Shown: positions 29,550 through 64,000 of the stretch, one piece after another | How positions within the stretch are numbered: the stretch's first letter is position 1 | Layout of the letters: the number at the start of each line of letters is the position of its first letter | UHGV virus genome: UHGV-0218015 | Origin: a virus | Reading direction: 5' to 3' (one strand) | DNA length: 64,000 bases | The notes under the pieces: model-generated | The model's input: only the letters and a program-made list of their open reading frames with translations | Told to the model about the DNA's origin: nothing | Databases searched by the model: none | Translations under genes and position numbers: made by a program

Positions 29550-29598
29550 CTACCGCCCGATTCTATGGGCGGTAGATGTTTTTTATTTTTTTTTGATC
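29550..29598 (+). terminator. rho-independent terminator
   Basis: ctaccgccc...gggcggtag then long T-run. Confidence 0.75.
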
Positions 29599-30171: not shown

Positions 30172-30376
30172 ACTTGACGGTTTTTCTGGTAATGGAGGCC
30201 AAAGCAAACGTTTATCAAGACTTAGTAAACCCAGATCATGAGAACGCGGAGTTGGGCATCACTTTCACGTTAGAAGATGATGGATTAAAACCAGTATAAT
30301 AATCCGCTTATAAAAATGTTGGGGGAGGTGTTTTACCTTCCCAGATCTTTTAGCTCCAGATAGAGAATTAAATATC

Positions 30377-35403: not shown

Positions 35404-35413
35404 GGACAGAAAG

Positions 35414-35644: not shown

Positions 35645-35656
35645 CAGGAGATCGCG

Positions 35657-36163
35657 ATGGGGGGGGTAACCGGTTCGTGGGTCGGTTCTTCGGCCAAGAA
35701 CGAAACGGGCGAACAATGGATGAGCGCTGCTGGTAGTAAATTAGGATTGGGTAGACCTTTTATGATGAGTCAAATGGTGGGACGATCTATGGGCTGTAAA
35801 ATTGCAACCGCTGCATATAGCGATTCTTTAGGTAAGAAATGGGGCGCAGTAGGACCAAGCTGGCCGTTAAACCAGAAAAATCAGGGAACCATTCAAAACG
35901 CGGGTAACTGCGGGGTGGGAACTTTAGTAGGTATTGAGTTACAGTTAACGACGATAGTTGCCAACGCAAAGCCTACTTTAGCGGTTTACTTACAAGGAGG
36001 CAGAGCCTCTAACATTACCGTAAATTTAGGTGGTAACACCTGCGCGCTGGCCTATCAGCAGGTTATTAACGGACAGCATTATTACTGGACTAATAACATC
36101 AGCGCTGCGTTCCAAAACGTGATGAAATCGACAGGCGCACTGCGTGATTTGAGAATTAGCTAA
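35657..36163 (+). CDS. tail-fibre-associated protein (paralog), G8 tract at codons 1-4
   Basis: ATG GGG GGG GTA start; N-terminus matches 34858 gene. Confidence 0.45.
   Translation: MGGVTGSWVGSSAKNETGEQWMSAAGSKLGLGRPFMMSQMVGRSMGCKIATAAYSDSLGKKWGAVGPSWPLNQKNQGTIQNAGNCGVGTLVGIELQLTTIVANAKPTLAVYLQGGRASNITVNLGGNTCALAYQQVINGQHYYWTNNISAAFQNVMKSTGALRDLRIS
35659..35666 (+). repeat. G8 homopolymer at codons 1-4 of the 35657 gene
   Basis: atgggggggggta; the paralog at 34858 has only G5 here. Confidence 0.7.
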
Positions 36164-36197: not shown

Positions 36198-36207
36198 GGG
36201 GGGGGGG
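36198..36207 (+). repeat. G10 homopolymer in 5' region of the 36262 gene
   Basis: Preceded by AT-rich hairpin ttttcaac...gttgaaaa (36167-36190). Confidence 0.7.
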
Positions 36208-36261
36208 TGAATGTTTTTTAGTCAATATTTTATGACCCCCAACCGTAGGAGGTAAACATAC

Positions 36262-36774
36262 GTGGAAAAATTCACACCAGATTTATCACTAACTTCACTT
36301 AACATGGTTATTTCACTGGTTAACCATGACCTCCAACTTGACTTGCAAGAGAACGAGGTTGAAGTCAGTGACGTAAAAACCAGTGATGAAATGGATCGTG
36401 ACTCCACTGCCATTGTAAAGATTAAACGTCCTGGAAACAGAACGTTGCAAATCTACTACAACCGTTTAACCGCAGAGCGGTGGTTAAACCAACAACCTAT
36501 TCTGGTAAAAGTAAGAGGTGAAGGGTTTAATGCACACGATCTTATCGAATCCGTCAATGCCGTTTGTGGTGCTAACTTACAAACCGACGATTTAACCGAC
36601 CAGTCGTTCACGGTAGGTAAAGACGCGGTAACGCTTAGCATCGCTCCGAATTCCATCGCTTATAAAGGACAGTTCTCCGTGGTGGTTTTCGGCCCAGATG
36701 AAACACCGTGTGGCATCGGTGATGATTCTGTCGTGTTGACGTTTGACAATAAAATCTTAACTTTTGGAGAGTAG
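36262..36774 (+). CDS. RBP-module accessory protein (paralog of 29611..30171)
   Basis: GTG start after AGGAGG; sits directly upstream of the second RBP gene. Confidence 0.45.
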   Translation: MEKFTPDLSLTSLNMVISLVNHDLQLDLQENEVEVSDVKTSDEMDRDSTAIVKIKRPGNRTLQIYYNRLTAERWLNQQPILVKVRGEGFNAHDLIESVNAVCGANLQTDDLTDQSFTVGKDAVTLSIAPNSIAYKGQFSVVVFGPDETPCGIGDDSVVLTFDNKILTFGE

Positions 36775-41167: not shown

Positions 41168-41209
41168 CGAAGGCTTAATCACACCACCATTTACCTAAAG
41201 GAGCATTAA

Positions 41210-42753: not shown

Positions 42754-43039
42754 ACTAATTCGACTATTTAAACGTAAGAAATGTCCTGTCTGCGAAATTA
42801 ATGAAAAGATTATTGCTAAGCAAGACGAGCTAATCAAGCAACAAGATAAGTTGCTCACTGAAATGGGCGAACGCTATTTTAAACTTTGTGCTATTACCGA
42901 ACTGATTAGTGAAGGTGTGTTAACGAAAGACGGTGGGTTAGAGTTGGTCAAGAAGGCAACGATTCACTGTCGCCCTGAAGTAGAAAAATATAAACTTGAA
43001 GTGAAACGTGAAATGTGGGAGATCATTAATGAAGCGTGA
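42743..43039 (+). CDS. small CxxC protein
   Basis: Internal ATG at 42743 preferred over track 42698; contains CPVCE. Confidence 0.4.
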   Translation: MVFKLIRLFKRKKCPVCEINEKIIAKQDELIKQQDKLLTEMGERYFKLCAITELISEGVLTKDGGLELVKKATIHCRPEVEKYKLEVKREMWEIINEA

Positions 43040-43310
43040 AACGGTTGTATTTCGTAGTAATGGTGATGTGGTTTTGTATCGTGGTAAGAAACGTATTCGT
43101 ACGTTAGAATACCGAGAAGCAAAACGTTTCGTTGAAGAGTGTGCGTGGTTAATGCATTACGAAGGGAACTATCGCGCCATCTTAGAAGCACCGCGTTTAG
43201 AACGTGCAGTTGCGCAGATGGCAATAGGTAATCCTAAGAACTGTTACCTGGCCCGTAAGCCCAAATACCTACAGCGTGTCTCGCTAGGCAGTTTTATTGC
43301 GGGTTTTTAA
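43029..43310 (+). CDS. hypothetical protein
   Basis: ATG at 43029 overlapping upstream stop. Confidence 0.4.
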   Translation: MKRETVVFRSNGDVVLYRGKKRIRTLEYREAKRFVEECAWLMHYEGNYRAILEAPRLERAVAQMAIGNPKNCYLARKPKYLQRVSLGSFIAGF

Positions 43311-43315
43311 TAAAA

Positions 43316-43365
43316 ATATTTTCAGATATATATTACCTAGGTGAGAGTTCAGTTACTCTCACTTA
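43316..43365 (+). promoter_or_regulatory. conserved promoter-like cassette, copy 3
   Basis: tttcagatatatattacctaggtgagagt plus inverted repeat gtgagagt/actctcac, then cttaac. Confidence 0.45.
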
Positions 43366-43391
43366 ACGAAACCATTTTAGGAGAATATACC

Positions 43392-46566: not shown

Positions 46567-47415
46567 ATGTCTCTTACGTCAAAACAGAAACTGCTAAAAC
46601 TCATCAACACTGAAAACAATATTGTTCCGCCATTGACCTTCAGTGATGTTGATATCGGCGAACCTACTGGTACTGGGGTTGATACCCAGGTGGTTCTGAC
46701 TTCTAAACTCAAAGGCGATGAGTCTACTACTTTAACGGTGACTTACCATCGTCGTAATTTGCCCGAATACCTAACAGGTGAGTTGGTATTCGGTAACGAC
46801 GGTGTTGTAACCGCCTCAGATTTGCTTAACGCAATCAACGCAAAATACGATTTAAATATTCTGCCATCGGATATCGTTGATGCGAAAGTTGAAGGTAAAA
46901 CCCACCAACTTACCGCTAACGAGAAATCTTACGAGTGGTGTGGCGAAGTGACGCTTACGCTACGCGATCCTATTGATCTGGCTAAATTGCTACCTGTTAC
47001 TCAATTAGAAAACCTGGTAGAGTATCCGTCCACTAAGAAAGGTAACGCTGCGGTTTATTCTTACCCAATTGACTTCACCGCAGAAAAAGATTACCTTGAT
47101 CCAATTACCATCAACGGCACCGTAGACTTAGTAGAGTTAGCTACTAAACTGACTAACGTTGTTGATGAGAAATGGGTAAGCGTACCTAAGAACGCTGCTA
47201 ATAACTTGTTCGGTGCTAAGGTTATCTACGATGGCCCTACCGCAGGTTTCGAAGGCGCAAATGCGAAGTACACGCGTGTGCTGGTACTCGCCCTAAGCGG
47301 TATGTGTTCTAACCTGACCGGTAAACTGTTAATTCACTTTAACGGAACCGATCGTCCGAAGTCGAAGATTGAATTAGCCAAGACTAATTCGGTCTTACCG
47401 GGATTCTTAGATTAA
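46567..47415 (+). CDS. hypothetical protein, member of a four-gene family
   Basis: N-terminus KQKLLKLINTENN..FSDVDIGEP resembles 47429, 50573 and 51171 gene products. Confidence 0.5.
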   Translation: MSLTSKQKLLKLINTENNIVPPLTFSDVDIGEPTGTGVDTQVVLTSKLKGDESTTLTVTYHRRNLPEYLTGELVFGNDGVVTASDLLNAINAKYDLNILPSDIVDAKVEGKTHQLTANEKSYEWCGEVTLTLRDPIDLAKLLPVTQLENLVEYPSTKKGNAAVYSYPIDFTAEKDYLDPITINGTVDLVELATKLTNVVDEKWVSVPKNAANNLFGAKVIYDGPTAGFEGANAKYTRVLVLALSGMCSNLTGKLLIHFNGTDRPKSKIELAKTNSVLPGFLD

Positions 47416-47428
47416 GAGGATTACAGTA

Positions 47429-47905
47429 ATGACCAGTCAAGAAACTATTTTCGACCTTATTAAAAAGGCTAACCCAGACGCCGAGCTCGACACCGCCAAA
47501 GTCACATTGGGTGAGCCCGTCGTAAGTACCGGTACGTACAACACCGAAATTACGGTTGTGCCGGTTAAAAATCTCGGTTATGTTAATAAGCAAACGTTCC
47601 AGTATAACCGCATTGATGCAGGTTTGTATTTCCTCAACGTATTGCCGAAACTGTTAGTTGAGACAGCAACCACGACTGCGGACCTGCTGCCTGTAATTAA
47701 CGAGCAGTATGGCTTAACCCTTACCGAAGACGATGTGTGGGTAGAGCAGGTTGGTGCGTTGCCGCTAGACGGCAGTGCAATCGAGCACGGTATTTTCTTC
47801 CGCCCCGAGTGTCTAACCTGGGTCGGTGGTTTTACAGTGCGTGTTGCGCGTAAACCGTCTGTCGAGACACCGCCAGCTAAGCCATCGCGCGCTAAGAAGA
47901 AATAA
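47429..47905 (+). CDS. hypothetical protein, family member
   Basis: TIFDLIKKANPDAELDTAKVTLGEP; basic C-terminal tail; terminator follows. Confidence 0.5.
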   Translation: MTSQETIFDLIKKANPDAELDTAKVTLGEPVVSTGTYNTEITVVPVKNLGYVNKQTFQYNRIDAGLYFLNVLPKLLVETATTTADLLPVINEQYGLTLTEDDVWVEQVGALPLDGSAIEHGIFFRPECLTWVGGFTVRVARKPSVETPPAKPSRAKKK

Positions 47906-50572: not shown

Positions 50573-51103
50573 ATGGCTAAAACTTTTCAACAGCAGCTTA
50601 TCGAACTTATTAACACTAAAAACAGCTCTCTGAGCTCCGCTCTCACCGTAGCTGATGTTGACTTTAGTGCTGTCGCTGACTTCACCGGAGAAGCTGGCCG
50701 CAACACTAAAATTACTCTGACCGCCAAGGCAGAAAGCCAGAACTTCAAAGGCGAGAAAGAATTCCACTATACTCGTCTTTCCTGCGACATCGTTGGTGAA
50801 GTTGAAGTAACTGCACCTACTACCGATTTCGATTCACCAACGAAAATCCTGGCAAAAGTTAACGCAGCCATGGCTGAGAAAGGGTACACCGATGACGAGT
50901 TCGGTGAAAACGACCTGCAAACTATTTCCCGTGAAGAAGAAGGCAAAACCATTTACGTAGTAACTGTTGTGGCTGGACACCTGAAGTTCCTGCCAGGTAC
51001 TGTTGCAACGTATAAAGTTACTCCTCCGGCTATTGAGAAAGTAGTATTGAACGGTTTGGAAGGTGAACTGGATGGCTTCACCGCACCAGCGCCTAAAGAG
51101 TAA
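50573..51103 (+). CDS. hypothetical protein, four-gene family member
   Basis: AGGTAAAAAACA-ATG; QQQLIELINTKN...; C-terminal GELDGFTA shared with next gene. Confidence 0.5.
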   Translation: MAKTFQQQLIELINTKNSSLSSALTVADVDFSAVADFTGEAGRNTKITLTAKAESQNFKGEKEFHYTRLSCDIVGEVEVTAPTTDFDSPTKILAKVNAAMAEKGYTDDEFGENDLQTISREEEGKTIYVVTVVAGHLKFLPGTVATYKVTPPAIEKVVLNGLEGELDGFTAPAPKE

Positions 51104-51110
51104 TTGATTC

Positions 51111-51119
51111 GGGGGGGGG
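51111..51119 (+). repeat. G9 homopolymer in intergenic hairpin
   Basis: Between the two four-gene-family members. Confidence 0.7.
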
Positions 51120-51150
51120 TGGTAACCTCCCCCGATATTTCTTTAACTTT
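51111..51150 (+). terminator. G-tract hairpin terminator candidate
   Basis: G9 followed by tggtaacctccccc and a T-rich tail; imperfect stem. Confidence 0.4.
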
Positions 51151-51170
51151 CATTTTAAGGATTTAAGATA

Positions 51171-51701
51171 ATGGCAGCTACTAACCAGATGATGTTAGTT
51201 GCGCTTTATAATGCTGCTAACACAGAGCTACCGCATCAGGTCACTGATAAAGAGGTAACTTTTGGTCAACCTGTCGCTCTTGAAAAGGGCGATAAAAATA
51301 CCAAAGTTACCATGACCGCACGTACAGAGTCTGAAAATTTTAAAGGCGCAATCGAACTGCATTACGATCGTCTGGAACCTGGCGTTATCGGACGCATTGA
51401 GGTAACGGACGATTTGGCTCTCTGGACTGGAGAAAACGAACTACGCGACCGATTACAGTTCTACATCAATAAAGTAAAACCTGACGACTCTATCGCGCCT
51501 GGTGACGTTGAGTACACCACCGAAGACCAGAAAGACGAACACGATAGCGTCACTCTGCGTACGGTAACTTGTACCGTTACTGAAAAGAACCTCCGTTATA
51601 AACCGGGTGTAATGGCAACTTTCGTAATTACGCCGAAAGTTGTTGATAATCGTATTGACCTGGCCACCACCGACGGTGAACTTGACGGCTTTACTGCTTA
51701 A
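51171..51701 (+). CDS. hypothetical protein, four-gene family member
   Basis: Paralog of 50573 (ENFKGA.ELHYDRL, GELDGFTA); bidirectional terminator follows. Confidence 0.5.
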   Translation: MAATNQMMLVALYNAANTELPHQVTDKEVTFGQPVALEKGDKNTKVTMTARTESENFKGAIELHYDRLEPGVIGRIEVTDDLALWTGENELRDRLQFYINKVKPDDSIAPGDVEYTTEDQKDEHDSVTLRTVTCTVTEKNLRYKPGVMATFVITPKVVDNRIDLATTDGELDGFTA

Positions 51702-51739
51702 TCGCTAAGTCAACTACTACAACAAAAAATAATAAGTTT

Positions 51740-51780
51740 ACCTACCTCCTTTACGGAGGTAGGTACTTTTTTATTTTATC
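51740..51780. terminator. bidirectional terminator between convergent blocks
   Basis: 11-bp stem tacctacctcc / ggaggtaggta, A-run upstream, T-run downstream. Confidence 0.75.
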
Positions 51781-52445: not shown

Positions 52446-52993
52446 TCATCTTCTCCTTTAACTAAACCTAGCTCAATTAACAATTCAAAATCGATTTGGC
52501 GAAATTTGTTATCAAAACCAGAATCCCAATCGATGTGTAATCCTTGTCGTTCTTCATCGGTAAGTTCAGGATAAATTAAATCATGGAACGCTTCACGTTC
52601 CTCGTAAAATCCATCGATAGTAGAATCTGGATTCCGCATTGCGTAAATCGTGATGCCCGGAAAGGATAATCCTAATGCTGTTATAGATTCGACGCTTGGT
52701 TCTTGCAAGGCCCTGCGTAATAGCACGATTTTATGTCGTGGAAAATCTAGTACACGTTGTTCAAACCCAGGATTCCGTTTCTCAATTTCTGTAACTGAAA
52801 GATCGGTGAGTTCTGTGCAATACATTGGGATAACTACAGTTACTCCGTGGCGAATTAATAATCGTTTAACATCGTCAGTGAAGTCTTCACCATTAATTTG
52901 CACATAACAACCAAACAATTTTGTAGTTTCTAAAAATTTTTCCAGAAAACGGAATTTACGCTTCGTAATATTGTGGATCAGAATTGGCTTCAT
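52421..52993 (-). CDS. hypothetical protein
   Basis: ORF overlapping both neighbours. Confidence 0.45.
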   Translation of the reverse strand: MKPILIHNITKRKFRFLEKFLETTKLFGCYVQINGEDFTDDVKRLLIRHGVTVVIPMYCTELTDLSVTEIEKRNPGFEQRVLDFPRHKIVLLRRALQEPSVESITALGLSFPGITIYAMRNPDSTIDGFYEEREAFHDLIYPELTDEERQGLHIDWDSGFDNKFRQIDFELLIELGLVKGEDECLLLTKA

Positions 52994-54278
52994 CTTTGGT
53001 TTCTCTCAATTGTTTTTCTTTCTGGGTACGTTCACGTACGCAACGAGGGCAATAACACATGCTATTGTCATGAAAATCTTTCACTGACGTCGTGCCCATT
53101 TTCTGTTTCCAATATTCCGCAACCATCAACTTTGCAGTTGTCCAGCCGCATTGACGGCGTTCAGCGTGATAAGCTTTGCGATCTTCTAGCGTCCCTTCTC
53201 CATTCTCGTAAGATGCAGCCGCACAACTACCACAAGCGTGCTTCATTGGACAACCTAAACAGGTTTCAGGATAGTTGGTGTATTGCGTCTGAATCTCTTC
53301 CAGCAATTTCCCGTCATCTAAGCTAACGAATTCCCGGCCAACTAATTCAAATACGGCAGAACGTGATGTTACGGTTGACATGAAACGGTTACAACCGAAG
53401 ATCTTACGATCAAATCCTAAGCAGGTCATGTGTGTTAACGTACCGCAGAACGGGCGTAAACGTTCTGGATTCAAACGTACAGTATCGTTATACAATAACT
53501 GATCACGCCAGTTTGGTTCCCAGATAGTATCAAAATCTAACCCGTCTGGAATGATGTGCGACAAAGTGTTACGTGGGTTGGTGTGTAAGCCCTTCTCAAC
53601 CCAATAATCAACCACGTCCATCATCTGCAATGCGATTGAAGTAGCCATGCTCCGTGGCATAATGTCTTCGAAGGTTACGTTGCCAGAAATAGTTCCGCCG
53701 CCAGTAATATCAATTAATGATTTCATTCCAGCAGCATAGAACGGTAACGTTTCCAACGTAAAGGTCGCTTTTACACCAAGTTCTGCAATACCGACTTCTT
53801 TTAAGTAGTTATAGCCCCGCACAGCGGCCTCGTAAGATCCTTCACGAGTTGTTGTAAAAATCCGGTACTTATCGTGCGATTCGGGCAATCCATCAATAGA
53901 CACGCCGATAGAAAGCCTGTCTTTCCAACGTTCAATAATTTCTCTATTCAAAGGTCTATCTAACAACGTTCCGTTAGTAGAGATGCTAAACATAAACGGC
54001 CGATTATGTTTTTCGCATAACTCTTCTGCGGTTTCAAATGCCGCCTTTAATAGTTTAGGCTGCATAAACGGCTCACCACCGATGATATCGATAACGACCT
54101 CGATGTTTGTCAGATCTTTATCTCGTTCAAAACAAGCGTGTAGAAAATCAACAATATCCGCCGCTTTGTTATTACGGGGATACTTACGTTCGTAACAATA
54201 CTCACAGTCCAAGTTACACGATAAATTTGTAACAATTTGATAAGTCAGTTGTTTTGGATAACTATTTTCTTGACTCAT
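52956..54278 (-). CDS. radical SAM enzyme with SPASM-type C-terminal domain (anSME-like peptide maturase candidate)
   Basis: N-terminal CNLDCEYCYE (CxxxCxxC), GGEP; C-terminal Cys clusters CLGCPMKHACGSC and CYCPRC typical of SPASM/twitch domains. Confidence 0.75.
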   Translation of the reverse strand: MSQENSYPKQLTYQIVTNLSCNLDCEYCYERKYPRNNKAADIVDFLHACFERDKDLTNIEVVIDIIGGEPFMQPKLLKAAFETAEELCEKHNRPFMFSISTNGTLLDRPLNREIIERWKDRLSIGVSIDGLPESHDKYRIFTTTREGSYEAAVRGYNYLKEVGIAELGVKATFTLETLPFYAAGMKSLIDITGGGTISGNVTFEDIMPRSMATSIALQMMDVVDYWVEKGLHTNPRNTLSHIIPDGLDFDTIWEPNWRDQLLYNDTVRLNPERLRPFCGTLTHMTCLGFDRKIFGCNRFMSTVTSRSAVFELVGREFVSLDDGKLLEEIQTQYTNYPETCLGCPMKHACGSCAAASYENGEGTLEDRKAYHAERRQCGWTTAKLMVAEYWKQKMGTTSVKDFHDNSMCYCPRCVRERTQKEKQLRETKDEANSDPQYYEA

Positions 54279-55200
54279 TTTCCGCCCCTCTATTACGCTC
54301 TGCCATCACTACACGACGAATGTACTCGTAAGCTTCTACACCTATTGAGGAGGCTAGTTGGTTACACCCTGCTTTTGTAGTTATTGGTACATTTTTAAGT
54401 TGGTTTTCTTCCCCGTCCGCGTCTATCCTGAGACTTTCGCTACAGACATTACAAGCATGATCGAAGAATCTGTTTACAATAAAACCGCAGTCTCTAGAAT
54501 TTAGAACGTTTAATCTTTCTATATTCTCCTGAATTCTAAAATACCCGTAAATAAAGTTCATAACGTGATCGGGAGATAACGGTTTTGGCATGTTTTTATC
54601 TAGTAATAAGGACATGGAACGAAAACCGTAATGATAGATAGCAGTATGTAATTGAATGATATCTTCATGCCATCTTTTGTTGGATAAATTCTCCCTCGTA
54701 ACAACAGCCCAAGTGTTAACATTATTCAAGCTGTAAATTACTTCTAACGCTTCATGACAATTATCATCAATAAAGCGCTTAAAAGGCCGTTCGGAAAGAT
54801 TAAACCCATCGATGCTAACATATATAGCATCGAATTGTTTTAACAACGGTAGATGCGATTTACGCATTTTTAAACCGTTCGTGAACATCTGGTGTTTGAG
54901 TTCAGGACGGATCGTTTTTAATTCGTCGACAAACGCCTCAATCTTTCGAGTTGCCAGTAGCGGTTCACCGCCAGTCCACTGAATTTCAGTAATGGTTGGG
55001 TTAGACGCCAACGCTTTCAAAATTCGTTCACGTTGAAACTCTCGCGGAGAATCTTCACGATGCATGTAATAGGCTCCGCCGCAGAAGCTACAGTCCAGAT
55101 TACATTTGGATGTAGCAACTACGGACAATACGGTGGGTTTATTGTATAAACGATTCGATAACCTTGGCTCTACGTCGGTTGTCATTGCAGGTGAGTCCAT
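54262..55200 (-). CDS. radical SAM enzyme (paralog B)
   Basis: TSKCNLDCSFCGG and GGEPLL; paralog of 57235..58149 with identical DNA blocks. Confidence 0.7.
   Translation of the reverse strand: MDSPAMTTDVEPRLSNRLYNKPTVLSVVATSKCNLDCSFCGGAYYMHREDSPREFQRERILKALASNPTITEIQWTGGEPLLATRKIEAFVDELKTIRPELKHQMFTNGLKMRKSHLPLLKQFDAIYVSIDGFNLSERPFKRFIDDNCHEALEVIYSLNNVNTWAVVTRENLSNKRWHEDIIQLHTAIYHYGFRSMSLLLDKNMPKPLSPDHVMNFIYGYFRIQENIERLNVLNSRDCGFIVNRFFDHACNVCSESLRIDADGEENQLKNVPITTKAGCNQLASSIGVEAYEYIRRVVMAERNRGAENESRK
54514..54597. repeat. 84-bp block identical to 57478..57561
   Basis: Identical string inside radical SAM paralogs B and A; two more shared blocks of ~38 and ~54 bp near 54838/57813 and 55081/58025. 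Confidence 0.7.
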
Positions 55201-56107: not shown

Positions 56108-56626
56108 TTATTTTACGGTCAATCTGACGTTCAAGGTATAGAACCCGCCACGCCATTGCCTGCCGGTAACTTCAAATTCTGCAGTAAAGCCGTTTGATTT
56201 ACTCGGTTGCTGCTTAATCGCCATGCTTCCGCCGGAATTACTTAATACTTCTAATGAGATAGAAGCAGAAGATGCATTACCGATAGAGTCTATCTTAAAA
56301 CTAGCCGCGTCTGTAAAATTAACAGTGATACCATTACCCATTGCAACTTGAGGGTAGGCGTAGGACTTTCCAGACAGTAACGATTTAAAGACCCTTATCG
56401 GTTTCTCTCTACCGGTTGACGTTACGCATTGAATAAAGACAGCCCCAGTAGAGAAATTGATACGAACAGTATCTTTAGCGTGTAGCTTAGACTCAACATA
56501 AACAACGGCTTTGTTGTCGTAGGTTGGTCTTGAAGGGGTTGGCGTAGAACCACCGCTAGAGGGCTTACTTACCCCCCCCCGCCCCCTTACTACAGCTACC
56601 GCTGCACGACCAACTACATCCGCCAT
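56108..56626 (-). CDS. beta-rich domain protein, possibly expressed as a fusion to peptide P3
   Basis: Annotated ATG lies inside the P3 coding region; body is +1 relative to P3 across a G9 tract; Pro/Ser/Thr/Gly linker then beta-rich sequence. Confidence 0.4.
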   Translation of the reverse strand: MADVVGRAAVAVVRGRGGVSKPSSGGSTPTPSRPTYDNKAVVYVESKLHAKDTVRINFSTGAVFIQCVTSTGREKPIRVFKSLLSGKSYAYPQVAMGNGITVNFTDAASFKIDSIGNASSASISLEVLSNSGGSMAIKQQPSKSNGFTAEFEVTGRQWRGGFYTLNVRLTVK

Positions 56627-56774
56627 TACAATTATAATGACTTAAAGGTAATCCTGCGAGATTGTTGGTTGAGGAAACCGTTCCTTGGTTTGCAATATAG
56701 TTGTTTGCATTAGCGGTGGTGATATATCCCTCCGCCGTTACTAATCTGTCGCGTATGTTTTTAAGACTTATCAT
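56565..56774 (-). CDS. Cys-rich precursor-like peptide P3 (69 aa)
   Basis: Leader ISLKNIRDRL and core NCNGGCSWSCSGSCS similar to P1/P2; ends in the G9 tract. Confidence 0.55.
   Translation of the reverse strand: MISLKNIRDRLVTAEGYITTANANNYIANQGTVSSTNNLAGLPLSHYNCNGGCSWSCSGSCSKGAGGGK
56572..56580 (-). repeat. G9 homopolymer on the coding strand at the P3 / beta-domain junction
   Basis: Minus-strand reading aag ggg gcg ggg ggg ggt aag taa; a G5 run lies just 5' of it. Confidence 0.7.
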
Positions 56775-57234: not shown

Positions 57235-58149
57235 TTATCGTAGTTTTTCTGAGACTCTATTCTTAGCCCCTACCACACGACGTATATAGTCGTAAGCATC
57301 TAATCCAACCTTTCTGGCCAAGTCACTACAGCCGTGTTGCGTTACGATTTCAACGTTCTTTACTTGGTTCTGGGCACCGTCAGACTCAATGCGAAAACAA
57401 CGACTACATGTGTTACAGGGTTCATCAAATAACGCATTTAGCGTAAACGCACATTCACTTCGATTGGACGAATTCAGTCTTTCTATATTCTCCTGAATTC
57501 TAAAATACCCGTAAATAAAGTTCATAACGTGATCGGGAGATAACGGTTTTGGCATGTTTTTGTCCAAAACCAGCGACATCTCACAAAAACCATAATGGTA
57601 AATGTGGTTATGTAACGCAATTATATCTTCGTACCAACGTTTATCCCCAATACGCTCGCGTGTCAAAACCGCCCAAGTACGAATATTTTTCAATTCGTAA
57701 ATTGTCTCCAAAACCTCGTATTGTTTTTCTTCGATAATCCGCATGAACGGACGCTCTGATTCTTTGAATCCATCCATGCTAAAAAAGATACTATCAAAAC
57801 CCTTTAACAACGGTAGATGCGATTTACGCATTTTTAAACCATTGGTATACAGGTAATGTTCGCAACGAGGATACTTCTCCCTTATCTCTTCTATAAGGGT
57901 ATCAATTTTACGCGTGGCAAGTAATGGTTCGCCCCCTGACCATTGGATATTTGTGATAGTCGGGTTATTTTCCAGCGCCTCGATAATACTTTCCTTTTGT
58001 ACTTCTGCGGTTGTATCCTCTCTATGCATGTAATAGGCTCCGCCGCAGAAGCTACAGTCCAGATTACATTTGGATGTTGTAATCACGTTTAACGTTCTCG
58101 GATTACTGTAAAGCTTATCGGATACCGTCGGTCTAGTAAGTTCTTCCAT
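57235..58149 (-). CDS. radical SAM enzyme (paralog A)
   Basis: TSKCNLDCSFCGG and GGEPLL; C-terminal CNTCSRC. Confidence 0.7.
   Translation of the reverse strand: MEELTRPTVSDKLYSNPRTLNVITTSKCNLDCSFCGGAYYMHREDTTAEVQKESIIEALENNPTITNIQWSGGEPLLATRKIDTLIEEIREKYPRCEHYLYTNGLKMRKSHLPLLKGFDSIFFSMDGFKESERPFMRIIEEKQYEVLETIYELKNIRTWAVLTRERIGDKRWYEDIIALHNHIYHYGFCEMSLVLDKNMPKPLSPDHVMNFIYGYFRIQENIERLNSSNRSECAFTLNALFDEPCNTCSRCFRIESDGAQNQVKNVEIVTQHGCSDLARKVGLDAYDYIRRVVGAKNRVSEKLR
57478..57561. repeat. 84-bp block identical to 54514..54597
   Basis: See partner copy. Confidence 0.7.
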
Positions 58150-58628: not shown

Positions 58629-59828
58629 TTATTTCGTACCTGCTTCTGCCTGAACGTCATCACGGGACGTCAGGTTAGCGTTAACGTGTACTGAAGCCTG
58701 AACCACACCACCGTATTTCTTGTGGAGATAACCTGTGTGTGGGTTATCTGCCGCAATATGGTTTTGTAGGTTCTGATTCGCCTGACTGATTGCGTTCGTG
58801 TTATTCGCAACCTGTTGTTTAAGCGCATCCAAGTTTTGTTGCAGATTATCAATTTTCTGATCGGTCTCATTACCCCGCTGTTCTAACGCAGCAATGCGCT
58901 GAATCGCTTGGTTGAGTTTGGTGTTCAGATCGTTGATATTTTTCTGTAACTGTAACACTAACGAGTTTAGGTTCGCCAGCGCCAGTGCCATTTTCTGATA
59001 GTTTTGTGCAACGACGTTAAGTTGGTCGTTCCACGCTTCCAGAGATTTGACAACAGCATCAATACGTTTTCCTAACGCTTCGTCCGCTTTCTTCAATGCA
59101 TTGATATCGGCAATCGTTGCATCAATGGCTGTCTGAACACTGCGAATTAAAGCGCGGATCTCCGTTTCCGTTAACCCGTTAACCTGATGAATATCCAGAT
59201 GGTGGACATTACCAGTAGAGTTAATGTGCGCGTTCAGCGCGTCCAGGAAATCGTTTTTCAGGCTATCGAGAATCGCTTTGATGTTCTCAAGCTGTACAGC
59301 ATCACCCGCAGTTATCGCATCTTTAATGCCAGCGAGCACTGTAATGATATATTCGAAGCCGTAAATATCACCGACGTCTTTATACGTTGGTGCTGAAGGA
59401 AACGTGTCCGGCACATTTCGCAAGTCTTTAAAGCCAACAGTTCGATTATCGAGTTTCAACTCGGCAATCGCTTGCTCAATCGCGGTCACATTTGCAGACT
59501 GAGGACCACCAACTACTTGCGCCGATACCGTGATATCGGTCGGAATCGCGGTGTTCGTTACAACAACCGCCATTACCACTTCCCGGTTCTTCGTCAATTT
59601 CTCATAAGCCGGGTGTGCAAAAATCAGTTCATAGTCCGTTCCACGCTCATATGTCGCTCCAGGTCGATTGGCAACCCGCAAGCGGAACGTATCGGCATAA
59701 AACGGACCATCAGGGAAAGCAAACGCACGGTTAACTTTGCCTGTACCTAACGTAATCTGACGCTCCACGGCGTTAGAGGTTAGGGTTCCCGTTAAATCTA
59801 AAGGGTATTGGTATACAATGGAGGCCAT
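58629..59828 (-). CDS. coiled-coil fibrous protein (tail fibre/whisker-like)
   Basis: ATG at 59828 after AAGGAGAG (track start 59954 lies inside upstream gene); long heptad-like Q/N/L-rich central region. Confidence 0.5.
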   Translation of the reverse strand: MASIVYQYPLDLTGTLTSNAVERQITLGTGKVNRAFAFPDGPFYADTFRLRVANRPGATYERGTDYELIFAHPAYEKLTKNREVVMAVVVTNTAIPTDITVSAQVVGGPQSANVTAIEQAIAELKLDNRTVGFKDLRNVPDTFPSAPTYKDVGDIYGFEYIITVLAGIKDAITAGDAVQLENIKAILDSLKNDFLDALNAHINSTGNVHHLDIHQVNGLTETEIRALIRSVQTAIDATIADINALKKADEALGKRIDAVVKSLEAWNDQLNVVAQNYQKMALALANLNSLVLQLQKNINDLNTKLNQAIQRIAALEQRGNETDQKIDNLQQNLDALKQQVANNTNAISQANQNLQNHIAADNPHTGYLHKKYGGVVQASVHVNANLTSRDDVQAEAGTK

Positions 59829-59868
59829 GGCCACTCTCCTTAATCCGAGACGTCCTTGTCTCGTGGCG

Positions 59869-62800
59869 TTAAGATGTAAACATAAGATTGAACTGGAGTT
59901 TATCGATATCGCGAGTTTGTGCTGGGTTAACCGCATCGTACGTGGTTGCCACATAGACCGTTAACGTGCCGTCAGAATACGCGGTTTTCACCGGTGGTGT
60001 AGTCCCTGTCTGTCCATCAGTTACAATGACGACAGGTTGAGCCGGGAGTTGACGAAACTGACTCTTAACCGCTTTATAGACCAAACCAGATTGTGCCGCT
60101 TGCTCTGTGGCGGTGTACACGATAAACGGTGTGTCGATATCTGTCTGTTTAATGACAGTGTTCGTCTCAACGTCAATCAGCTGAACAGCACCAAATTTGG
60201 TCCGGTAACTATCGTATTCATTTTTTGGAATGACAAACGTAGCATGAAGGCGGACTTCGGCGGCTGGCTTAAATCCCGCGTGTTCTTTTTCCAGGTAACT
60301 GTTAGCAGTTAGCGTTACTGTCTGTTCAGTCATCGTACCGCCAGACTGATTTAGCCCGTAACGAACTTGAGTTATACCTGTCGGGGCCGCAAGCCTGATT
60401 TTCAGTCTACGATTAGCAGTACCAGGATCGCCAGGTACTTTAACACGCAGACTCAATGCCAGATATGCATACTCGCCAGTAGTCGGTTTCGTATACGCGC
60501 CCAACCACTTCATGTTCGCGGTTGCTGCTTGTTTGTTCTCAGAAGCAGTAGCCGCTGCAACGTTCGCAGCAACCGCTTTCTGCCAGAACTGGTCAGCGCA
60601 GTTCTCATACGCCACCCTGCTGATACTTTTATAACCTGAATAGGTTTCCTGTACCGGCAACCTGGAACGTGTTGTAATCCCGGACAACGTATTCCATTTC
60701 TGACCATCGACATACCCAGCACCCTTGCTCGCAGATGCTGTAACGACTTTAACGGGTTTATTAACCAGCGTTAATAGTGGGCCAGTTTTCCTGTCGAATG
60801 CCTGCGCCACATCGTGTTGATCAACAATCGATGCATGATTTTCCAGCTCTTTTACGCGACCTAACCGTTTTACTTTATCGATACTGATATCCGTAATACG
60901 GTTCGAATCAGTGGTTACAGTCCCAACAAACAGTCTCGACGAGGTATCAGCTAACTGCTCTAAACCGATGCGGTATTGGGCAGTAGAACCGACCACTTCA
61001 GCATAAACGTAGAACGTCTGGTTAGCATGATTAGTCGGGAATTCATCGCTTAAATCAACGGACCATCTTGGAACGGTATATCTTTTATTTCCAAAACTTA
61101 ACTCGGTTTCCTCCGTCAGATAGAAATTCCAACCGCTCTGTGTTTGTACGCCGCCAATAATAATCTTATCGATAACAGTATATTTTTTGTTAAACAAATC
61201 AGAGATTCTATACTGTTCGCCACCGAGATACAACTCGTTTAAATCTTCCGAGTTACAAGTCAATAGCGCGATGCCCGAGAGATCGGGTATATAGACTTCA
61301 GATGTATTATTCAGCTTATACGTATAGCCCCACGCCCGATGAATTTCGCCGGTAAACCATTCGCCTTTTTTAGTCAAGTTTATCCCAAAAGCAAAAGAAA
61401 TCTCTGATCCTACAAGATTCCCACCAACCAGGTTATGTATTGAGAATCTGAACTTTTGTCCGTCTTGCGAATAAAGGAAAACTTGACCGGAGCGTTGTTT
61501 AAGTTCACCATTAAAAGCTGTGGGTGAGAGATTAATGGCGTTACTGGCCACTTTTTCCCTGAACGTCATCATTCTCGCTTCCGAACTAACGAACCTTATG
61601 ACCCCGTTGGTTATAGTCGGTTTTACCTGAAAGAAGTAAAAAGCAAACTTATTTACCCCGTCAGTGTCTTTATAGATAAGACTCACTATCGCGATACAAA
61701 GCGGACCACCAGACATCGTTTGACCAAGCACCCAAAAGGACAAACTGTAGTTGTTCTTTTTGGTCTTAGCTACGCTAATCCGCTCATAGGCGTTGCCGTT
61801 AGATGCCCCGGAGAACTGGCTGGACTGAACAATATTAGTCAGCTTCGCCCATTCTGCCGCATCGATAGACAACCGATCACTACCCACCGTAGTGGTACCG
61901 TAAACAACTGTACACGGTTTACTTTCGGCACCGATAAAATAAGCCCCTTCTAGTAGGCCGTTCGGTATTTCTGGCGTAACAACCAGCGGTATATTTGTCA
62001 ATATGCCGTATTCGTTCGCTGTTTTTTCAACACGGCGGGATGTTGGTCCAAAACCACCGTATCCAGGATAACCATAGGTCGTATTTTTATCATATTCGGC
62101 TTCAATGAAATAAGCCGATTTTTGATGTTTAAGCCATACTTTGTTTGTTCCTGGGAAGAACAATGGGAAGGTCATAGACGGTTTCCACACCGAACCCACC
62201 ACAGGGTTTATCCGATTTTCAAACGTAGATTGCCCCTCATACCCCACACTCAACTTAACATAGTCCAGATAACTAACTCCTTCTGGGAGTTTCTGGTAAT
62301 GGAGAGATGGTGCGAGTTGTTTTTCTGTCGAACAGCAGCAAGAATAAACCATATCACCGACACAGATTCTATTGTCGGCCATATAGCCAGAACTTCGAGT
62401 AGCCCATTTCCATTTCAGCTCTATTTTTGTTCCGTCTTTTAAGTAACAACCTGTAGTATCGATTTTGATTGGGAAGACGTTAGTTGTCTCTAACCCAACC
62501 TCCCCGGTTAATAGGTCAAGACGATAAGCACCATTCCATGGCCCGAATGTGGTACCTTTCGTTGAAGAAAAACCAAGACAAACACCAGACACGCCGACGG
62601 TTAACAAGTGACCGTCCTTAACAACGGGCGTTATCCATCTTGACGACCCTCTAGTTAATTGTAAGTTCACTGTCCACAACGCTTTGCCTTCCGCAGTGAA
62701 GTAGGCAAGACGCTTCGTATTCGGATTATCTACATCGAACGCGCCAGGTTCAACCAAATCGGCACACTTACCGATTTTTCGTGTAGACCTTAAATCAACC

Positions 62801-64000
62801 TGTTCAAACCGATCGGTTTTATTAAGCCGCAATAAGCCAACACGGAACATGGGTTGTGGGGTATCCTTAATGTAGTCCACCAGAGTATTGTTTTTCAGAT
62901 CGGCCATTAGCATCGTACGCAAAACATAGACGCCGTTATCGGCTATGACCACACGATCCATGAACATATTCGGCACAAATTCCCATGTTGTTTCTGAAAC
63001 AAATTCTGAGAAAGTTACCAACCTGACATCGGTATGTTTGGTGTAATCCATTGAACCGTTCAGTTTAACTAAATAATAATTATTGTCGCTGCCCTTCGCT
63101 ATAAATGCTTCGGTACCAGTAACGGTAATTTCTTTTAGTTCCACCCCCGGATAATTCGTCTCTAACCCTTTCGGCTTATAACGGAAAGTTGTTTTGTAAA
63201 TTTCACCGAGACTTTTGTCGTTTTTTAACCCAGCAACAGCGTAATAAATACCCTCAGTTCCCGGAAGGGCGGATTTAGAGCTAATTAAAGCATAAAGCTT
63301 ACCTTGTTGTACCCCTATAACCATCTGGAGCGCATCCATGTTTTTACCATAACCTTCGTAATTACCCATCGACAAGATCGGCAATATCGAATTGTTGGTA
63401 TATTTGCTCCCGGCCGTTGTCCATGAGGGCAAGAGGGTATTCAGTTTATCAGAGACCTTCTTAATCTCTTTTGCGAACAGCCACCCTTGGCGTGATGTGA
63501 CGGCTTTATCATTCGTGGTATCAATCGCATCCCACAGCTGTAAGATACCGTCCACTGTTGCGCTACCAATCGGGACATTATCCAAATCAGCGGTAGTGTG
63601 CGTGTGTACCTTCAAACTTTTATTTTTCAGCACGTTCGCTAATGCTTTTGTTACCGGTTTAGCGATGGGTGTGGTGTTATTCATCTTATCGATACCGAAA
63701 TCGGCCTTCGTTAAGGTTAACACCATGTTGTCGCCTGTCTTAACAAACCCTTTACCGTTAACCGTGTAGTCGTCGTCAACGTACAAGTCCAACCGGTTTT
63801 TTAACTCGGTCACAGCCTTTTGGGAAATAGCAGTGCCTAGCGCTACAGAGGTTGCGATATTCGTAATCGAAAACACCCCATAAACCGACTCGGTTGCTGT
63901 GGGAATATTCGCGTTCAACGTTAGTGGGTTAGACTGCTTCGCTGTACCGTACGGTTTTACGGTATCTGACGATTTGAAATAGGCATTCGCTTCAAGTAAC
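59869..64000 (-). CDS. very large structural-like protein, 5'-partial
   Basis: Minus-strand ORF; frame stays open from the track TTG at 63918 to the window edge, so the N-terminus is probably outside the window. Confidence 0.55.
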   Translation of the reverse strand, partial: LLEANAYFKSSDTVKPYGTAKQSNPLTLNANIPTATESVYGVFSITNIATSVALGTAISQKAVTELKNRLDLYVDDDYTVNGKGFVKTGDNMVLTLTKADFGIDKMNNTTPIAKPVTKALANVLKNKSLKVHTHTTADLDNVPIGSATVDGILQLWDAIDTTNDKAVTSRQGWLFAKEIKKVSDKLNTLLPSWTTAGSKYTNNSILPILSMGNYEGYGKNMDALQMVIGVQQGKLYALISSKSALPGTEGIYYAVAGLKNDKSLGEIYKTTFRYKPKGLETNYPGVELKEITVTGTEAFIAKGSDNNYYLVKLNGSMDYTKHTDVRLVTFSEFVSETTWEFVPNMFMDRVVIADNGVYVLRTMLMADLKNNTLVDYIKDTPQPMFRVGLLRLNKTDRFEQVDLRSTRKIGKCADLVEPGAFDVDNPNTKRLAYFTAEGKALWTVNLQLTRGSSRWITPVVKDGHLLTVGVSGVCLGFSSTKGTTFGPWNGAYRLDLLTGEVGLETTNVFPIKIDTTGCYLKDGTKIELKWKWATRSSGYMADNRICVGDMVYSCCCSTEKQLAPSLHYQKLPEGVSYLDYVKLSVGYEGQSTFENRINPVVGSVWKPSMTFPLFFPGTNKVWLKHQKSAYFIEAEYDKNTTYGYPGYGGFGPTSRRVEKTANEYGILTNIPLVVTPEIPNGLLEGAYFIGAESKPCTVVYGTTTVGSDRLSIDAAEWAKLTNIVQSSQFSGASNGNAYERISVAKTKKNNYSLSFWVLGQTMSGGPLCIAIVSLIYKDTDGVNKFAFYFFQVKPTITNGVIRFVSSEARMMTFREKVASNAINLSPTAFNGELKQRSGQVFLYSQDGQKFRFSIHNLVGGNLVGSEISFAFGINLTKKGEWFTGEIHRAWGYTYKLNNTSEVYIPDLSGIALLTCNSEDLNELYLGGEQYRISDLFNKKYTVIDKIIIGGVQTQSGWNFYLTEETELSFGNKRYTVPRWSVDLSDEFPTNHANQTFYVYAEVVGSTAQYRIGLEQLADTSSRLFVGTVTTDSNRITDISIDKVKRLGRVKELENHASIVDQHDVAQAFDRKTGPLLTLVNKPVKVVTASASKGAGYVDGQKWNTLSGITTRSRLPVQETYSGYKSISRVAYENCADQFWQKAVAANVAAATASENKQAATANMKWLGAYTKPTTGEYAYLALSLRVKVPGDPGTANRRLKIRLAAPTGITQVRYGLNQSGGTMTEQTVTLTANSYLEKEHAGFKPAAEVRLHATFVIPKNEYDSYRTKFGAVQLIDVETNTVIKQTDIDTPFIVYTATEQAAQSGLVYKAVKSQFRQLPAQPVVIVTDGQTGTTPPVKTAYSDGTLTVYVATTYDAVNPAQTRDIDKLQFNLMFTS

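What the first reader, a model, noticed from the sequence alone, without database searches (positions are those of the whole stretch)
51111..51119. Third long G tract (G9) in an intergenic hairpin
Between two paralogous highly expressed genes lies G9 followed by tggtaacctccccc and a T-rich tail. Together with the tracts at 35659, 36198 and 56572 this makes four runs of 8 or more G within about 21 kb, far more than I would expect by chance in a genome of this apparent composition; I did not compute an expectation.
Basis: seen in the sequence. Interest (0 to 1): 0.35.

Follow-up and report, generated by a model that had tools for sequence, protein, structure and literature searches.

The report
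Slippery poly-G arm of a terminator hairpin
The G9 run is the left arm of a conserved terminator-like RNA hairpin between two duplicated virion-protein genes of a roughly 225 kb gut jumbo phage; its length drifts between 8 and 12 in nature, apparently harmlessly, while two sister G runs nearby switch a tail-fibre adhesin and a peptide-domain fusion on and off.

Summary
**Observation: confirmed.** G9 sits at 51111-51119, 7 nt after the stop codon of one DUF7941 gene and 51 nt before the start of its paralog. The window holds four G/C runs of 8 or more against 0.2-0.6 expected (P about 1e-4 to 3e-3). The run at 56572 is poly-C on the + strand, so it is G on its gene's sense strand.

**What it is.** The run pairs with CCUCCCCC to form a 10-bp hairpin followed by a U-rich tail.
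- Machinavirus relatives carry a canonical terminator at the same position.
- About 25 related metagenomic contigs keep a pure G8-G12 run there.
- Predicted stability is flat from G8 upward.
- So this tract is best read as a structural stem arm that slips, not as a switch.

**The wider set.**
- All four runs vary in length between contigs whose flanks are identical. T9 terminator tails vary too, so the instability comes from run length, not from G.
- Two runs are coding. One lies at codons 2-4 of a gp38-like adhesin, in frame in 4 of 15 samples. The other ends a Cys-rich peptide gene and fuses it to a 153-aa domain only at G11.

These coding runs resemble the poly-G contingency loci known in Campylobacter phages. 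Verdict: a new member of a known kind, of moderate interest.

The parts
51111..51119 (+). T3: the G9 run of the finding. It is the 5' arm of the hairpin and is G8-G12 in related contigs.
   Evidence: Length distribution over 25 pure-run contigs: one at 8, six at 9, thirteen at 10, three at 11, two at 12. One contig has the interrupted form GGGTGGGG.
51109..51135 (+). Terminator-like hairpin: UC-G8 pairs with CCUCCCCC-GA (10 bp including one G-U pair), with loop GUGGUAA.
   Evidence: Top-ranked terminator-like site in the scan. MFE -22.7 kcal/mol, z = -2.7. Consensus structure over 7 relatives has 11 pairs, all conserved, with no covariation available. Stability plateau for G8 and above.
51136..51156 (+). 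U-rich tail after the hairpin (TATTTCTTTAACTTTCATTTT). The block CCTCCCCCGATATTTCT(C/T)TAA is invariant across relatives.
50573..51103 (+). Upstream DUF7941 paralog (176 aa). It is an allelically variable cassette: 35-89% aa identity in relatives.
   Evidence: Homolog of SPN3US gp160.
51171..51701 (+). Downstream DUF7941 paralog (176 aa), with RBS AAGGA at 51157-51161. Its 5' end is nearly identical in all relatives.
51739..51765 (.). Bidirectional terminator that closes the paralog pair.
   Evidence: Equivalent hairpins occur in JN03 and in Machinavirus phages.
35659..35666 (+). T1: G8 at codons 2-4 of the gp38-like adhesin B (ORF 35657..36163). It is G7-G11 in other samples and in frame only at G8 or G11.
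   Evidence: The E. coli phage CMS-2020a homolog starts ATGGGGGTA, i.e. G5. A different adhesin allele in L066 also has ATG followed by G8.
36198..36240 (+). T2: G10 (G9-G12 elsewhere) as the 5' arm of a long conserved hairpin that closes on CCCCC at 36236-36240. It lies about 20 nt upstream of the RBS of DUF7941 gene 36262..36774.
56572..56580 (-). T4: G9 on the minus strand at the end of a 69-aa Cys-rich peptide ORF (56774..56565). G9 and G10 give the short peptide; G11 fuses it to a 153-aa domain, giving 222 aa (56774..56108).
   Evidence: Relatives end the peptide at GAGGSK* or GAGNR* with no run.
30321..30346 (+). Related G-arm hairpin GGGGGAGGTG-TTTTA-CCTTCCC upstream of the 1479-aa fibre gene. 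In relative L068 it is a pure G10.

Best explanation
**What it is.** The G9 run is the 5' arm of a factor-independent terminator (attenuator) hairpin.
- The hairpin sits between two tandem genes for gp160-like virion proteins (DUF7941) in a phiKZ/SPN3US-like jumbo phage of about 225 kb.
- In the transcript, eight G's pair with CCUCCCCC, with one G-U wobble. UC/GA closes the base of the stem, and a U-rich tail follows.

**Why the run exists and why it varies.**
- Pairing requires about eight consecutive purines. A G-U wobble tolerates G where A would be the Watson-Crick partner, so the arm can be, and is, a pure homopolymer.
- A pure run of 8 or more slips during replication. Extra G's simply enlarge the loop, so lengths of 8-12 coexist in nature with almost no predicted cost.
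- Lengths below 8 would weaken the stem, and none were seen.
- This tract is therefore structural and passively hypermutable, not a switch.

**What is shown and what is inferred.**
- Shown: the sequence anatomy, the conservation, the length polymorphism, the predicted energetics, and the positional equivalence to canonical terminators.
- Inferred: that the hairpin actually terminates or attenuates transcription, and that the length variation comes from replication slippage.

**The sister tracts.** The same slippage process acts on three other runs in the module.
- Two are coding: T1 at the adhesin start and T4 at the end of the Cys-rich peptide gene. There a length change does alter the product, in the manner of a contingency locus.
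For: **Anatomy**
- The scan ranks 51109-51135 plus its tail as the best terminator-like site in 44-58 kb.
- MFE is -22.7 kcal/mol, z = -2.7.
- The hairpin starts 5 nt after the stop codon of the upstream gene (the G run itself 7 nt after), on the same strand.

**Family resemblance**
- Other terminators of this phage on the + strand share the G-rich 5' arm and C-rich 3' arm, at 4209, 21000, 34822, 45917 and 47910.

**Positional homology**
- Erwinia phage pEa_SNUABM_4 and Salmonella phage pSal-SNUABM-04 have canonical GC-stem plus T-run terminators between their tandem paralogs.

**Conservation**
- Relatives with 75-90% nt identity keep the G run, a 3-6 nt loop that varies (TAA, TGA, TGT, TGGTAA), and an invariant CCTCCCCCGATATTTCT.
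- In those relatives' 24-kb loci it is the only G/C run of 7 or more.

**Buffering of length**
- Hairpin free energy is -20 to -22.5 kcal/mol for G8-G14, -18.4 for G7 and -15 for G5-6.
- All 25 observed pure alleles are 8 or longer.

**Slippage is generic in this phage**
- Every run of 8 or more, whether T or G, varies between strains. Runs of 5-7 mostly do not.
Against: - No transcript data exist. Termination by the phage's own RNA polymerases (phiKZ-type phages encode their own) is assumed, not shown.
- The U tract is mediocre: 5 T of 8, interrupted by C and A.
- No compensatory base changes support the stem, because both arms are invariant. Structure is therefore supported by conservation and energetics only.
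- The invariant block after the hairpin could be a promoter or a processing signal rather than a terminator tail.
- A pure run persisting across about 20% nt divergence could reflect selection for mutability rather than for pairing.
- Part of the length differences among assemblies could come from consensus calling in mixed populations.
Confidence: 0.62

Rival explanations
1. Phase-variable regulatory tract. The G-run length tunes terminator read-through, or translation initiation 36 nt downstream. Expression of the second paralog would then vary stochastically among progeny, as part of a multi-locus bet-hedging system together with T1, T2 and T4.
For: - The tract is hypervariable between contigs with near-identical flanks.
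- It is retained as a pure run in diverged relatives.
- Two sister tracts do toggle coding frames.
- T2 and T3 both lie about 50 nt upstream of DUF7941 start codons.
- Phage poly-G contingency loci are documented in the literature (Sorensen 2021, cited; preprint read).
Against: - Predicted hairpin energy changes by 2 kcal/mol or less across G8-G14.
- The tract lies outside any ORF, and no sigma-70-like promoter spans it.
- T9 terminator tails vary just as readily, so variability alone does not imply a switch.
- The allele distribution is unimodal around 10, with no sign of discrete states.
Confidence: 0.15
2. An RNA processing or stability element rather than a terminator. The hairpin would be a 3' stabiliser of the abundant upstream mRNA, or an RNase III/E site that separates the two cistrons.
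For: - The U tract is weak.
- The sister hairpin T2 has no U tract at all and sits directly before an RBS.
- The sequence between the hairpin and the RBS is strongly conserved.
Against: - Relatives have textbook terminators at the same position.
- The hairpin meets the terminator scan criteria.
- There is no Rfam match of any kind.
Confidence: 0.15
3. A conserved intergenic linker that serves as a recombination boundary for swapping the variable upstream paralog cassette. The G/C runs would be short shared homologies between modules.
For: - The upstream paralog is 35-89% identical among relatives, while the sequence from the hairpin onward is nearly identical.
- Similar G-arm/C-arm hairpins flank the fibre, adhesin and DUF7941 modules.
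Against: - The shared homology is only about 20-25 nt.
- No breakpoint analysis was done.
- This reading is compatible with, and secondary to, a terminator function.
Confidence: 0.06
4. A chance homopolymer, or a sequencing/assembly artefact.
For: - Homopolymers are error-prone in sequencing.
- One Logan contig (L006) ends 4 nt after the run.
Against: - Four runs are observed against an expectation of 0.2-0.6.
- The run appears in more than 25 independent assemblies from several projects and pipelines, always at 8 or more.
- Length differences of up to 4 nt are too large for consensus error.
- Interrupted natural variants exist (GGGTGGGG in L033; GGGGAGGGGG at T4 in L016).
Confidence: 0.02

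Closest known systems
Rho-independent (intrinsic) transcription terminators, including the canonical ones between the tandem gp160-like paralogs of Machinavirus phages (pEa_SNUABM_4, pSal-SNUABM-04)
   Same: - GC-rich stem-loop immediately after a stop codon, followed by a U-rich tract.
- Same intergenic position between homologous genes.
   Different: - The 5' arm is a pure G homopolymer longer than the 3' arm requires.
- The arm pairs through a G-U wobble.
- The U tract is interrupted.
- Length is polymorphic (8-12).
Hypermutable poly-G tracts of Campylobacter Fletchervirus phages (Sorensen et al. 2021, Cell Rep 35:109214; cited in PMC10877375 and in bioRxiv 10.1101/2025.10.21.683753)
   Same: - G runs of about 7-11 in a phage, concentrated in receptor-binding functions.
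- Length variation that turns ORFs on and off. This applies to T1 in the gp38-like adhesin and plausibly to T4.
   Different: - The tract of this finding is non-coding.
- The host is enterobacterial, and the phage is a phiKZ/SPN3US-like jumbo phage.
- The evidence here is between-sample metagenomic polymorphism, not measured switching or phenotype.
- Details of the Fletchervirus work beyond the cited sentences rest on my memory, because the paper itself is not held.
Phage contingency loci in T2/T4 (Gomez, Barrick and Waters, bioRxiv 10.1101/2025.10.21.683753)
   Same: - Homopolymer SSRs that slip during replication and generate reversible frameshifts.
- A minority of them lie in intergenic regions.
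   Different: - Those are mostly A runs of 6-9 in AT-rich genomes, with mutant frequencies around 1e-3.
- That study found SSRs under-represented in tail-fibre genes of coliphages, whereas here the long runs cluster in the host-recognition module.
- Here the consensus length itself differs between samples.
Bacterial phase-variable poly-G/C tracts (Campylobacter, Neisseria, Haemophilus contingency loci)
   Same: Slipped-strand mispairing at G/C runs of 8 or more, placed early in an ORF (as T1 is at codons 2-4) so that two of three lengths abolish the product.
   Different: - This is a viral genome replicated by a phage polymerase.
- For T3 no promoter spacer or ORF is involved.

Membership tests
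Intrinsic (Rho-independent) terminator | Stable GC-rich stem-loop in the transcript | tested here: met
   10-bp stem with 8 G-C pairs. MFE -22.7 kcal/mol, z = -2.7. Conserved in 7 relatives.
Intrinsic (Rho-independent) terminator | U-rich tract immediately 3' of the stem | tested here: met
   TATTTCTTTA meets the scan's criterion of at least 5 T in 8, but the tract is interrupted and so is weak.
Intrinsic (Rho-independent) terminator | Located just downstream of a stop codon on the transcribed strand, at a position where relatives have terminators | tested here: met
   The hairpin begins 5 nt after the TAA at 51101-51103. Machinavirus relatives have canonical terminators at the same position.
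Intrinsic (Rho-independent) terminator | Transcripts actually end there | not testable with these tools
   No RNA data are available.
Contingency locus / phase-variable SSR | Homopolymer above the slippage threshold (about 7-8 or more) | tested here: met
   G9 in the window; G8-G12 in relatives.
Contingency locus / phase-variable SSR | Length polymorphism among otherwise near-identical genomes | tested here: met
   - T3 is 9, 10 or 12 among contigs that differ by 19-50 SNPs over 6.5 kb.
- T1 and T2 differ between contigs with 0 SNPs over 5.1 kb.
-.
Contingency locus / phase-variable SSR | A length change shifts a reading frame | tested here: not met
   - T3 lies in a 67-nt intergenic gap, with no ORF across it.
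- The feature is met for T1 (168/169 aa against truncated) and for T4 (68/69 aa against 222 aa).
Contingency locus / phase-variable SSR | A length change alters expression through a promoter or terminator | tested here: inconclusive
   - Predicted hairpin energy is flat for G8-G14.
- No sigma-70-like promoter spans the run.
- The phage polymerase's promoters are unknown, and no expression data exist.
Contingency locus / phase-variable SSR | High-rate, reversible switching within a clonal population, with a phenotypic consequence | not testable with these tools
   This needs read-level allele spectra or an isolated phage.
Fletchervirus-type poly-G receptor-binding-protein tracts | Poly-G inside a receptor-binding protein ORF | tested here: not met
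   - T3 is non-coding, and its flanking genes are gp160-like family B virion proteins.
- T1 does meet this feature: it lies in a Gp38_N adhesin.

The most novel reading that the evidence does not exclude
The G-arm hairpins and the coding runs together form a lineage-specific, multi-locus poly-G diversification system in the virion-surface module of a human-gut jumbo phage.
- The hairpins are T3, T2, the hairpin at 30321 and the poly-C site at about 41184 seen in other strains. The coding runs are T1 and T4.
- Replication slippage would stochastically set which gp38-like adhesin caps the fibre.
- It would also set whether a radical-SAM-associated Cys-rich peptide is made alone or fused to an extra domain.
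- Through variable terminator or 5'-UTR hairpins, it would set the dosage of individual members of the large gp160/DUF7941 paralog family.

This would be combinatorial bet-hedging of virion surface composition.
Probability: 0.15. Interest if true: 0.65.

Novelty: new member of a known kind. Interest (0 to 1): 0.4.

Why it matters
**For the tract itself.** It is a worked example of how a functional RNA stem can turn into a hypermutable homopolymer. G-U wobble lets an arm become pure G, and slippage then follows. It also cautions against reading every variable poly-G as a switch.

**For the set of tracts.**
- It extends phage poly-G contingency loci, so far established in Campylobacter Fletchervirus and recently argued for T-even phages, to an uncultured phiKZ-like jumbo phage that is widespread in human-associated metagenomes.
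- A clear testable target emerges: an adhesin whose start-proximal G run is out of frame in about three-quarters of natural samples while the rest of the ORF stays intact.
- This bears on host-range prediction from metagenomic phage genomes. Gene callers silently drop such ORFs.
- It also bears on engineering or isolating jumbo coliphages.

Tried and rejected
- **Near-identity DNA search.** The region has no match in the INPHARED phage collection, and a 25-kb query gave only short patches. No annotated close relative exists there.
- **First IMG/VR search.** An exact flank-pattern search found nothing. Relatives were found later through proteins.
- **Rfam and tRNA.** An Rfam scan of 29-58.5 kb at E of 1 or less gave no family. 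There are no tRNAs in the window.
- **Sigma-70 promoter scan.** Fewer sites were found than in shuffles (19 against 27), and none spans the run. The phase-variable promoter-spacer model was rejected for lack of evidence.
- **G-quadruplex.** Rejected by inspection: there is a single G run, not four, and its partner is a C run that forms a duplex stem.
- **Covariation test of the hairpin.** Uninformative, because both arms are invariant. The T2 hairpin shows only one-sided changes.
- **G-specific hypermutation.** Rejected, because T9 and T6 terminator tails vary too.
- **Adhesin B as a decaying pseudogene.** Not supported. Once the run is normalised, the ORF body is intact in all 17 contigs checked besides the window, with 0-6 nt and 0-1 aa differences. 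The low divergence limits the power of this test.
- **Technical failures.**
  - A Markov simulation of expectations timed out and was replaced by analytic expectations.
  - The look-up for window 58629-59954 found no record.
  - The Cell Reports 2021 paper is not held.
- **PDB sequence searches.** Nothing useful for the paralog or for adhesin B.

Full report
**1. The observation**

The sequence is as described...TAA TTGATTC GGGGGGGGG TGGTAACCTCCCCC GATATTTCTTTAACTTTCATTTTAAGGATTTAAGATA ATG. G9 occupies 51111-51119, in the 67-nt gap between ORFs 50573..51103 and 51171..51701.

- The two ORFs are paralogs: 34% identity, E = 1e-26. Both belong to DUF7941 / phrog_4862, and other PHROG matches are annotated 'virion structural protein'.
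- The window has exactly four G/C runs of 8 or more: G8 at 35659, G10 at 36198, G9 at 51111, and a 9-mer at 56572.
- The run at 56572 is poly-C on the + strand. It reads as G9 on the sense strand of the minus-strand gene there.
- Markov models of order 0-4 predict 0.20-0.58 such runs, against 4 observed (P = 6e-5 to 3e-3). For runs of 9 or more they predict 0.04-0.14, against 3 observed.
- The run-length spectrum is bimodal: 30 runs of 5, 2 of 6, none of 7, then four of 8-10.

The excess is real.

**2. What genome this is**

- No near-identical DNA exists in the phage collection.
- Proteins match SPN3US-like (Seoulvirus) and Erwinia Machinavirus jumbo phages at about 35-50% aa identity.
- A phiKZ-type major capsid gene lies 1.2 kb upstream of the window.
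- Exact-protein look-ups place the window in scaffolds of about 225 kb, assembled independently from dozens of metagenome samples (ENA VATA22-2, DAVI22-1, VALL22-1, YERS23-1; Logan SRR18173xxx, ERR6013125, ERR14095620). These are 97.6-99.7% identical to the window.
- IMG/VR and other metagenome contigs of 220-225 kb are 75-90% identical in this region.

**3. The tract is the arm of a conserved terminator-like hairpin**

- The terminator scan ranks TCGGGGGGGGGTGGTAACCTCCCCCGA followed by TATTTCTTTA first in 44-58 kb: 10 pairs, 8 of them G-C.
- The RNA folds at -22.7 kcal/mol, z = -2.7. Eight G's pair with CCUCCCCC through one G-U wobble, and UC/GA closes the stem.
- The same architecture, a G-rich 5' arm and a C-rich 3' arm, recurs at this phage's other + strand terminators at 4209, 21000, 34822, 45917 and 47910.
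- In Machinavirus relatives the gap between the tandem paralogs holds textbook terminators: AAGGGAGC-TGTG-GCTCCCTT followed by ATTTATTTTTT, and AGGGGGC-TTCG-GCTCCCT followed by GTTTTATTTTTTT.
- In closer relatives the element is retained as a pure G run, a variable loop (TAA, TGA, TGT, TGGTAA) and an invariant CCTCCCCCGATATTTCT(C/T)TAA.
- One strain has the interrupted arm GGGTGGGG (L033). One relative has an unrelated hairpin, AAGGCGG-TAAAT-CCGCCTT.
- In the 24-kb loci of four diverged relatives this is the only G/C run of 7 or more.
- Both arms are invariant, so there is no covariation evidence. The structure rests on energetics, position and conservation.

**4. Length polymorphism and its likely meaning at this site**

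- Across 25 contigs with a pure run, the lengths are 8 (one), 9 (six), 10 (thirteen), 11 (three) and 12 (two).
- Predicted hairpin energy is -15 kcal/mol for G5-6 and -18.4 for G7. It then plateaus at -20 to -22.5 for G8-G14, because surplus G's only enlarge the loop.
- Every observed allele lies on the plateau.
- This is what a stem under pairing constraint would show: at least 8 G's needed, with length above that nearly neutral. A switch would show discrete states.
- I infer that the arm became a pure homopolymer because G-U wobble tolerates G opposite the U of CCUCCCCC. The perfect complement would be GGGGGAGG. Relatives of the sister hairpins do show such A-containing arms: GGAGGGGG at T2 in L067 and GGGGGAGGTG at 30321. 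Once pure and 8 or longer, the run slips.

**5. The instability is generic, not G-specific**

- In 42 kb aligned among close strains, every indel is either a homopolymer length change or part of a recombinant patch.
- All runs of 8 or more vary:
  - T9 at 15322: 7-9
  - T9 at 29586: 9-10
  - G8 at T1: 7-11
  - G10 at T2: 9-11
  - G9 at T3: 9-11
- Only 6 of 149 A/T runs of 5-6 vary. None of the 14 G/C runs of 5-6 varies, and none of the three A/T runs of 7.
- The tracts change faster than point mutations. The window and L009 have 0 SNPs in 5.1 kb but differ at T1 (8 against 10) and at T2 (10 against 9). L011, L012 and L014 are identical in their flanks but read 11/10, 9/9 and 9/10. L015 and L017 differ by 1 SNP and read G10 against G9 at T4.

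**6. The sister tracts**

*T1* (35659-35666)

- It follows the ATG of the second of two gp38-like adhesin genes. The gene has a Gp38_N domain and an AGGAG RBS.
- Only G8 or G11 keeps the 168/169-aa ORF.
- Over 15 samples the lengths are 7 (one), 8 (two), 9 (four), 10 (six) and 11 (two). That is 4 of 15 in frame, close to the one-third expected without selection on frame.
- Yet the ORF body is intact in all 17 contigs checked besides the window, with 0-6 nt and 0-1 aa differences.
- The homolog in E. coli phage CMS-2020a starts ATGGGGGTA, a G5. A different adhesin allele in relative L066 independently carries ATG followed by G8.

*T2* (36198-36207)

- It is the 5' arm of a long conserved hairpin: an outer G:C helix and an inner A-U helix, with no U tail. 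The hairpin sits just before the RBS of a DUF7941 gene.
- The arm is G9-G12 in this lineage, GGAGGGGG in L067 and GGGG in L034.

*T4* (56572-56580, minus strand)

- It encodes the Gly-rich end of a 69-aa peptide carrying CNGGCSWSCSGSCSKG, set among three radical-SAM genes.
- The sequence TAAGTAAG after the run gives stops in two frames. G9 and G10 therefore yield the short peptide, as in relatives that end it GAGGSK* or GAGNR* without a run.
- G11 fuses the peptide to a lineage-specific 153-aa domain, giving 222 aa. This was seen in 1 of 11 samples.

*Other sites*

- Other strains carry a fifth run, C8-C11, at about 41184, 30 nt before the ATG at 41210.
- Relative L068 has G10 at the hairpin equivalent to 30321.

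**7. Module bias**

- In this lineage no G/C run of 7 or more occurs in window 1-35.6 kb, in 56.6-64 kb, or in the 9 kb upstream of the window.
- None occurs in 20 kb further upstream in relatives.
- The homologous 41 kb of Salmonella phage JN03 has none.
- All sites fall between about 30 and 57 kb. That stretch holds the 1479-aa fibre, two gp38-like adhesins, a SASA-esterase protein, DUF1353 and DUF4376 assembly-like proteins, and several DUF7941 paralogs.
- However, the genes flanking T3 are homologs of SPN3US gp160. [quoted passage not shown]
- 'Tail genes' is therefore only partly right, and about two-thirds of the genome was not examined.

**8. Comparison with known systems**

- Hypermutable poly-G tracts that switch receptor-binding proteins are established for Campylobacter Fletchervirus phages (Sorensen et al. 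2021, cited).
- Homopolymer contingency loci have recently been demonstrated in T2 and T4 and surveyed in coliphages. That survey found SSRs under-represented in tail-fibre genes.
- T1, and arguably T4, fit that kind in a new host range and a new phage group.
- T3 fails the defining feature of a contingency locus: its length change has no demonstrable or predicted effect on a product. It passes the testable features of an intrinsic terminator.

**9. Verdict**

- This particular tract is an ordinary functional element, a terminator stem arm, with an unusual hypermutable composition.
- The cluster it belongs to includes two credible phage contingency loci.
- Novelty: a new member of a known kind.
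- Interest: moderate (0.4). It rests mainly on the adhesin switch and on the population-scale evidence, not on the intergenic run itself.

Noticed in passing
window 56108-56774 (minus strand), with 52956-55200 and 57235-58149: A 68-69 aa peptide carries the Cys-rich motif CNGGCSWSCSGSCSKG and lies among three radical-SAM genes. It looks like a RiPP precursor. It is conserved, and unannotated, in Salmonella phage JN03 and in IMG/VR relatives. Only in this lineage is it followed by an extra 153-aa domain, which is fused to it when the G run is 11.
   Followed up: partly
window 34858-36163: A phiKZ-like jumbo phage carries two gp38-like adhesin genes (Gp38_N domain). Between them is a 76-aa Cor-like lipoprotein gene (phrog_1119, with a lipobox). 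The start of adhesin B is 96% identical in DNA to E. coli phage CMS-2020a. Strain L034 instead has a full 260-aa T2-type gp38.
   Followed up: partly
window about 41184 (intergenic, 41168-41209): Strains L025, L028, L029, L032 and L033 carry a C8-C11 run here, 30 nt before the ATG at 41210. The window has CACACCACC at this point, so poly-G/C sites are gained and lost between strains.
   Followed up: partly
window 15322-15330, 21022-21027, 29586-29594: The T-run tails of canonical terminators are also length-polymorphic between strains: T7-9, T6-8 and T9-10.
   Followed up: yes
window 42795-43370: A recombinant patch where strains fall into two sequence types with several small indels. Logan contigs tend to break near here, at about 43355.
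   Followed up: no
window 61163-63418 (inside the 1349-aa ORF 59869..63918, minus strand): The central part of this large protein finds no DNA alignment in relatives, although its flanks are 79-96% identical. It is a hypervariable domain and a possible additional host-range determinant.
   Followed up: no
window 9874-10401, 29611-30171, 36262-36774, 46567-47415, 47429-47905, 50573-51103, 51171-51701: At least seven DUF7941 (SPN3US paralog family B / gp160-like) genes lie in the window. Several sit immediately upstream of fibre or esterase genes. Their role, in head or in fibre attachment, is unresolved.
   Followed up: partly
window about 57561: Three independent 225-kb scaffolds (ERZ28648449, ERZ28647575, ERZ28646898) end at the same position, inside the radical-SAM gene 57235..58149. 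This may be a genome terminus or a recurrent assembly break.
   Followed up: no
L016 (T4 equivalent) and L013 (T2 equivalent): Natural interrupted alleles occur: GGGGAGGGGG at T4 and GAGGGGGGGGGG at T2. These would stabilise the tract length.
   Followed up: no
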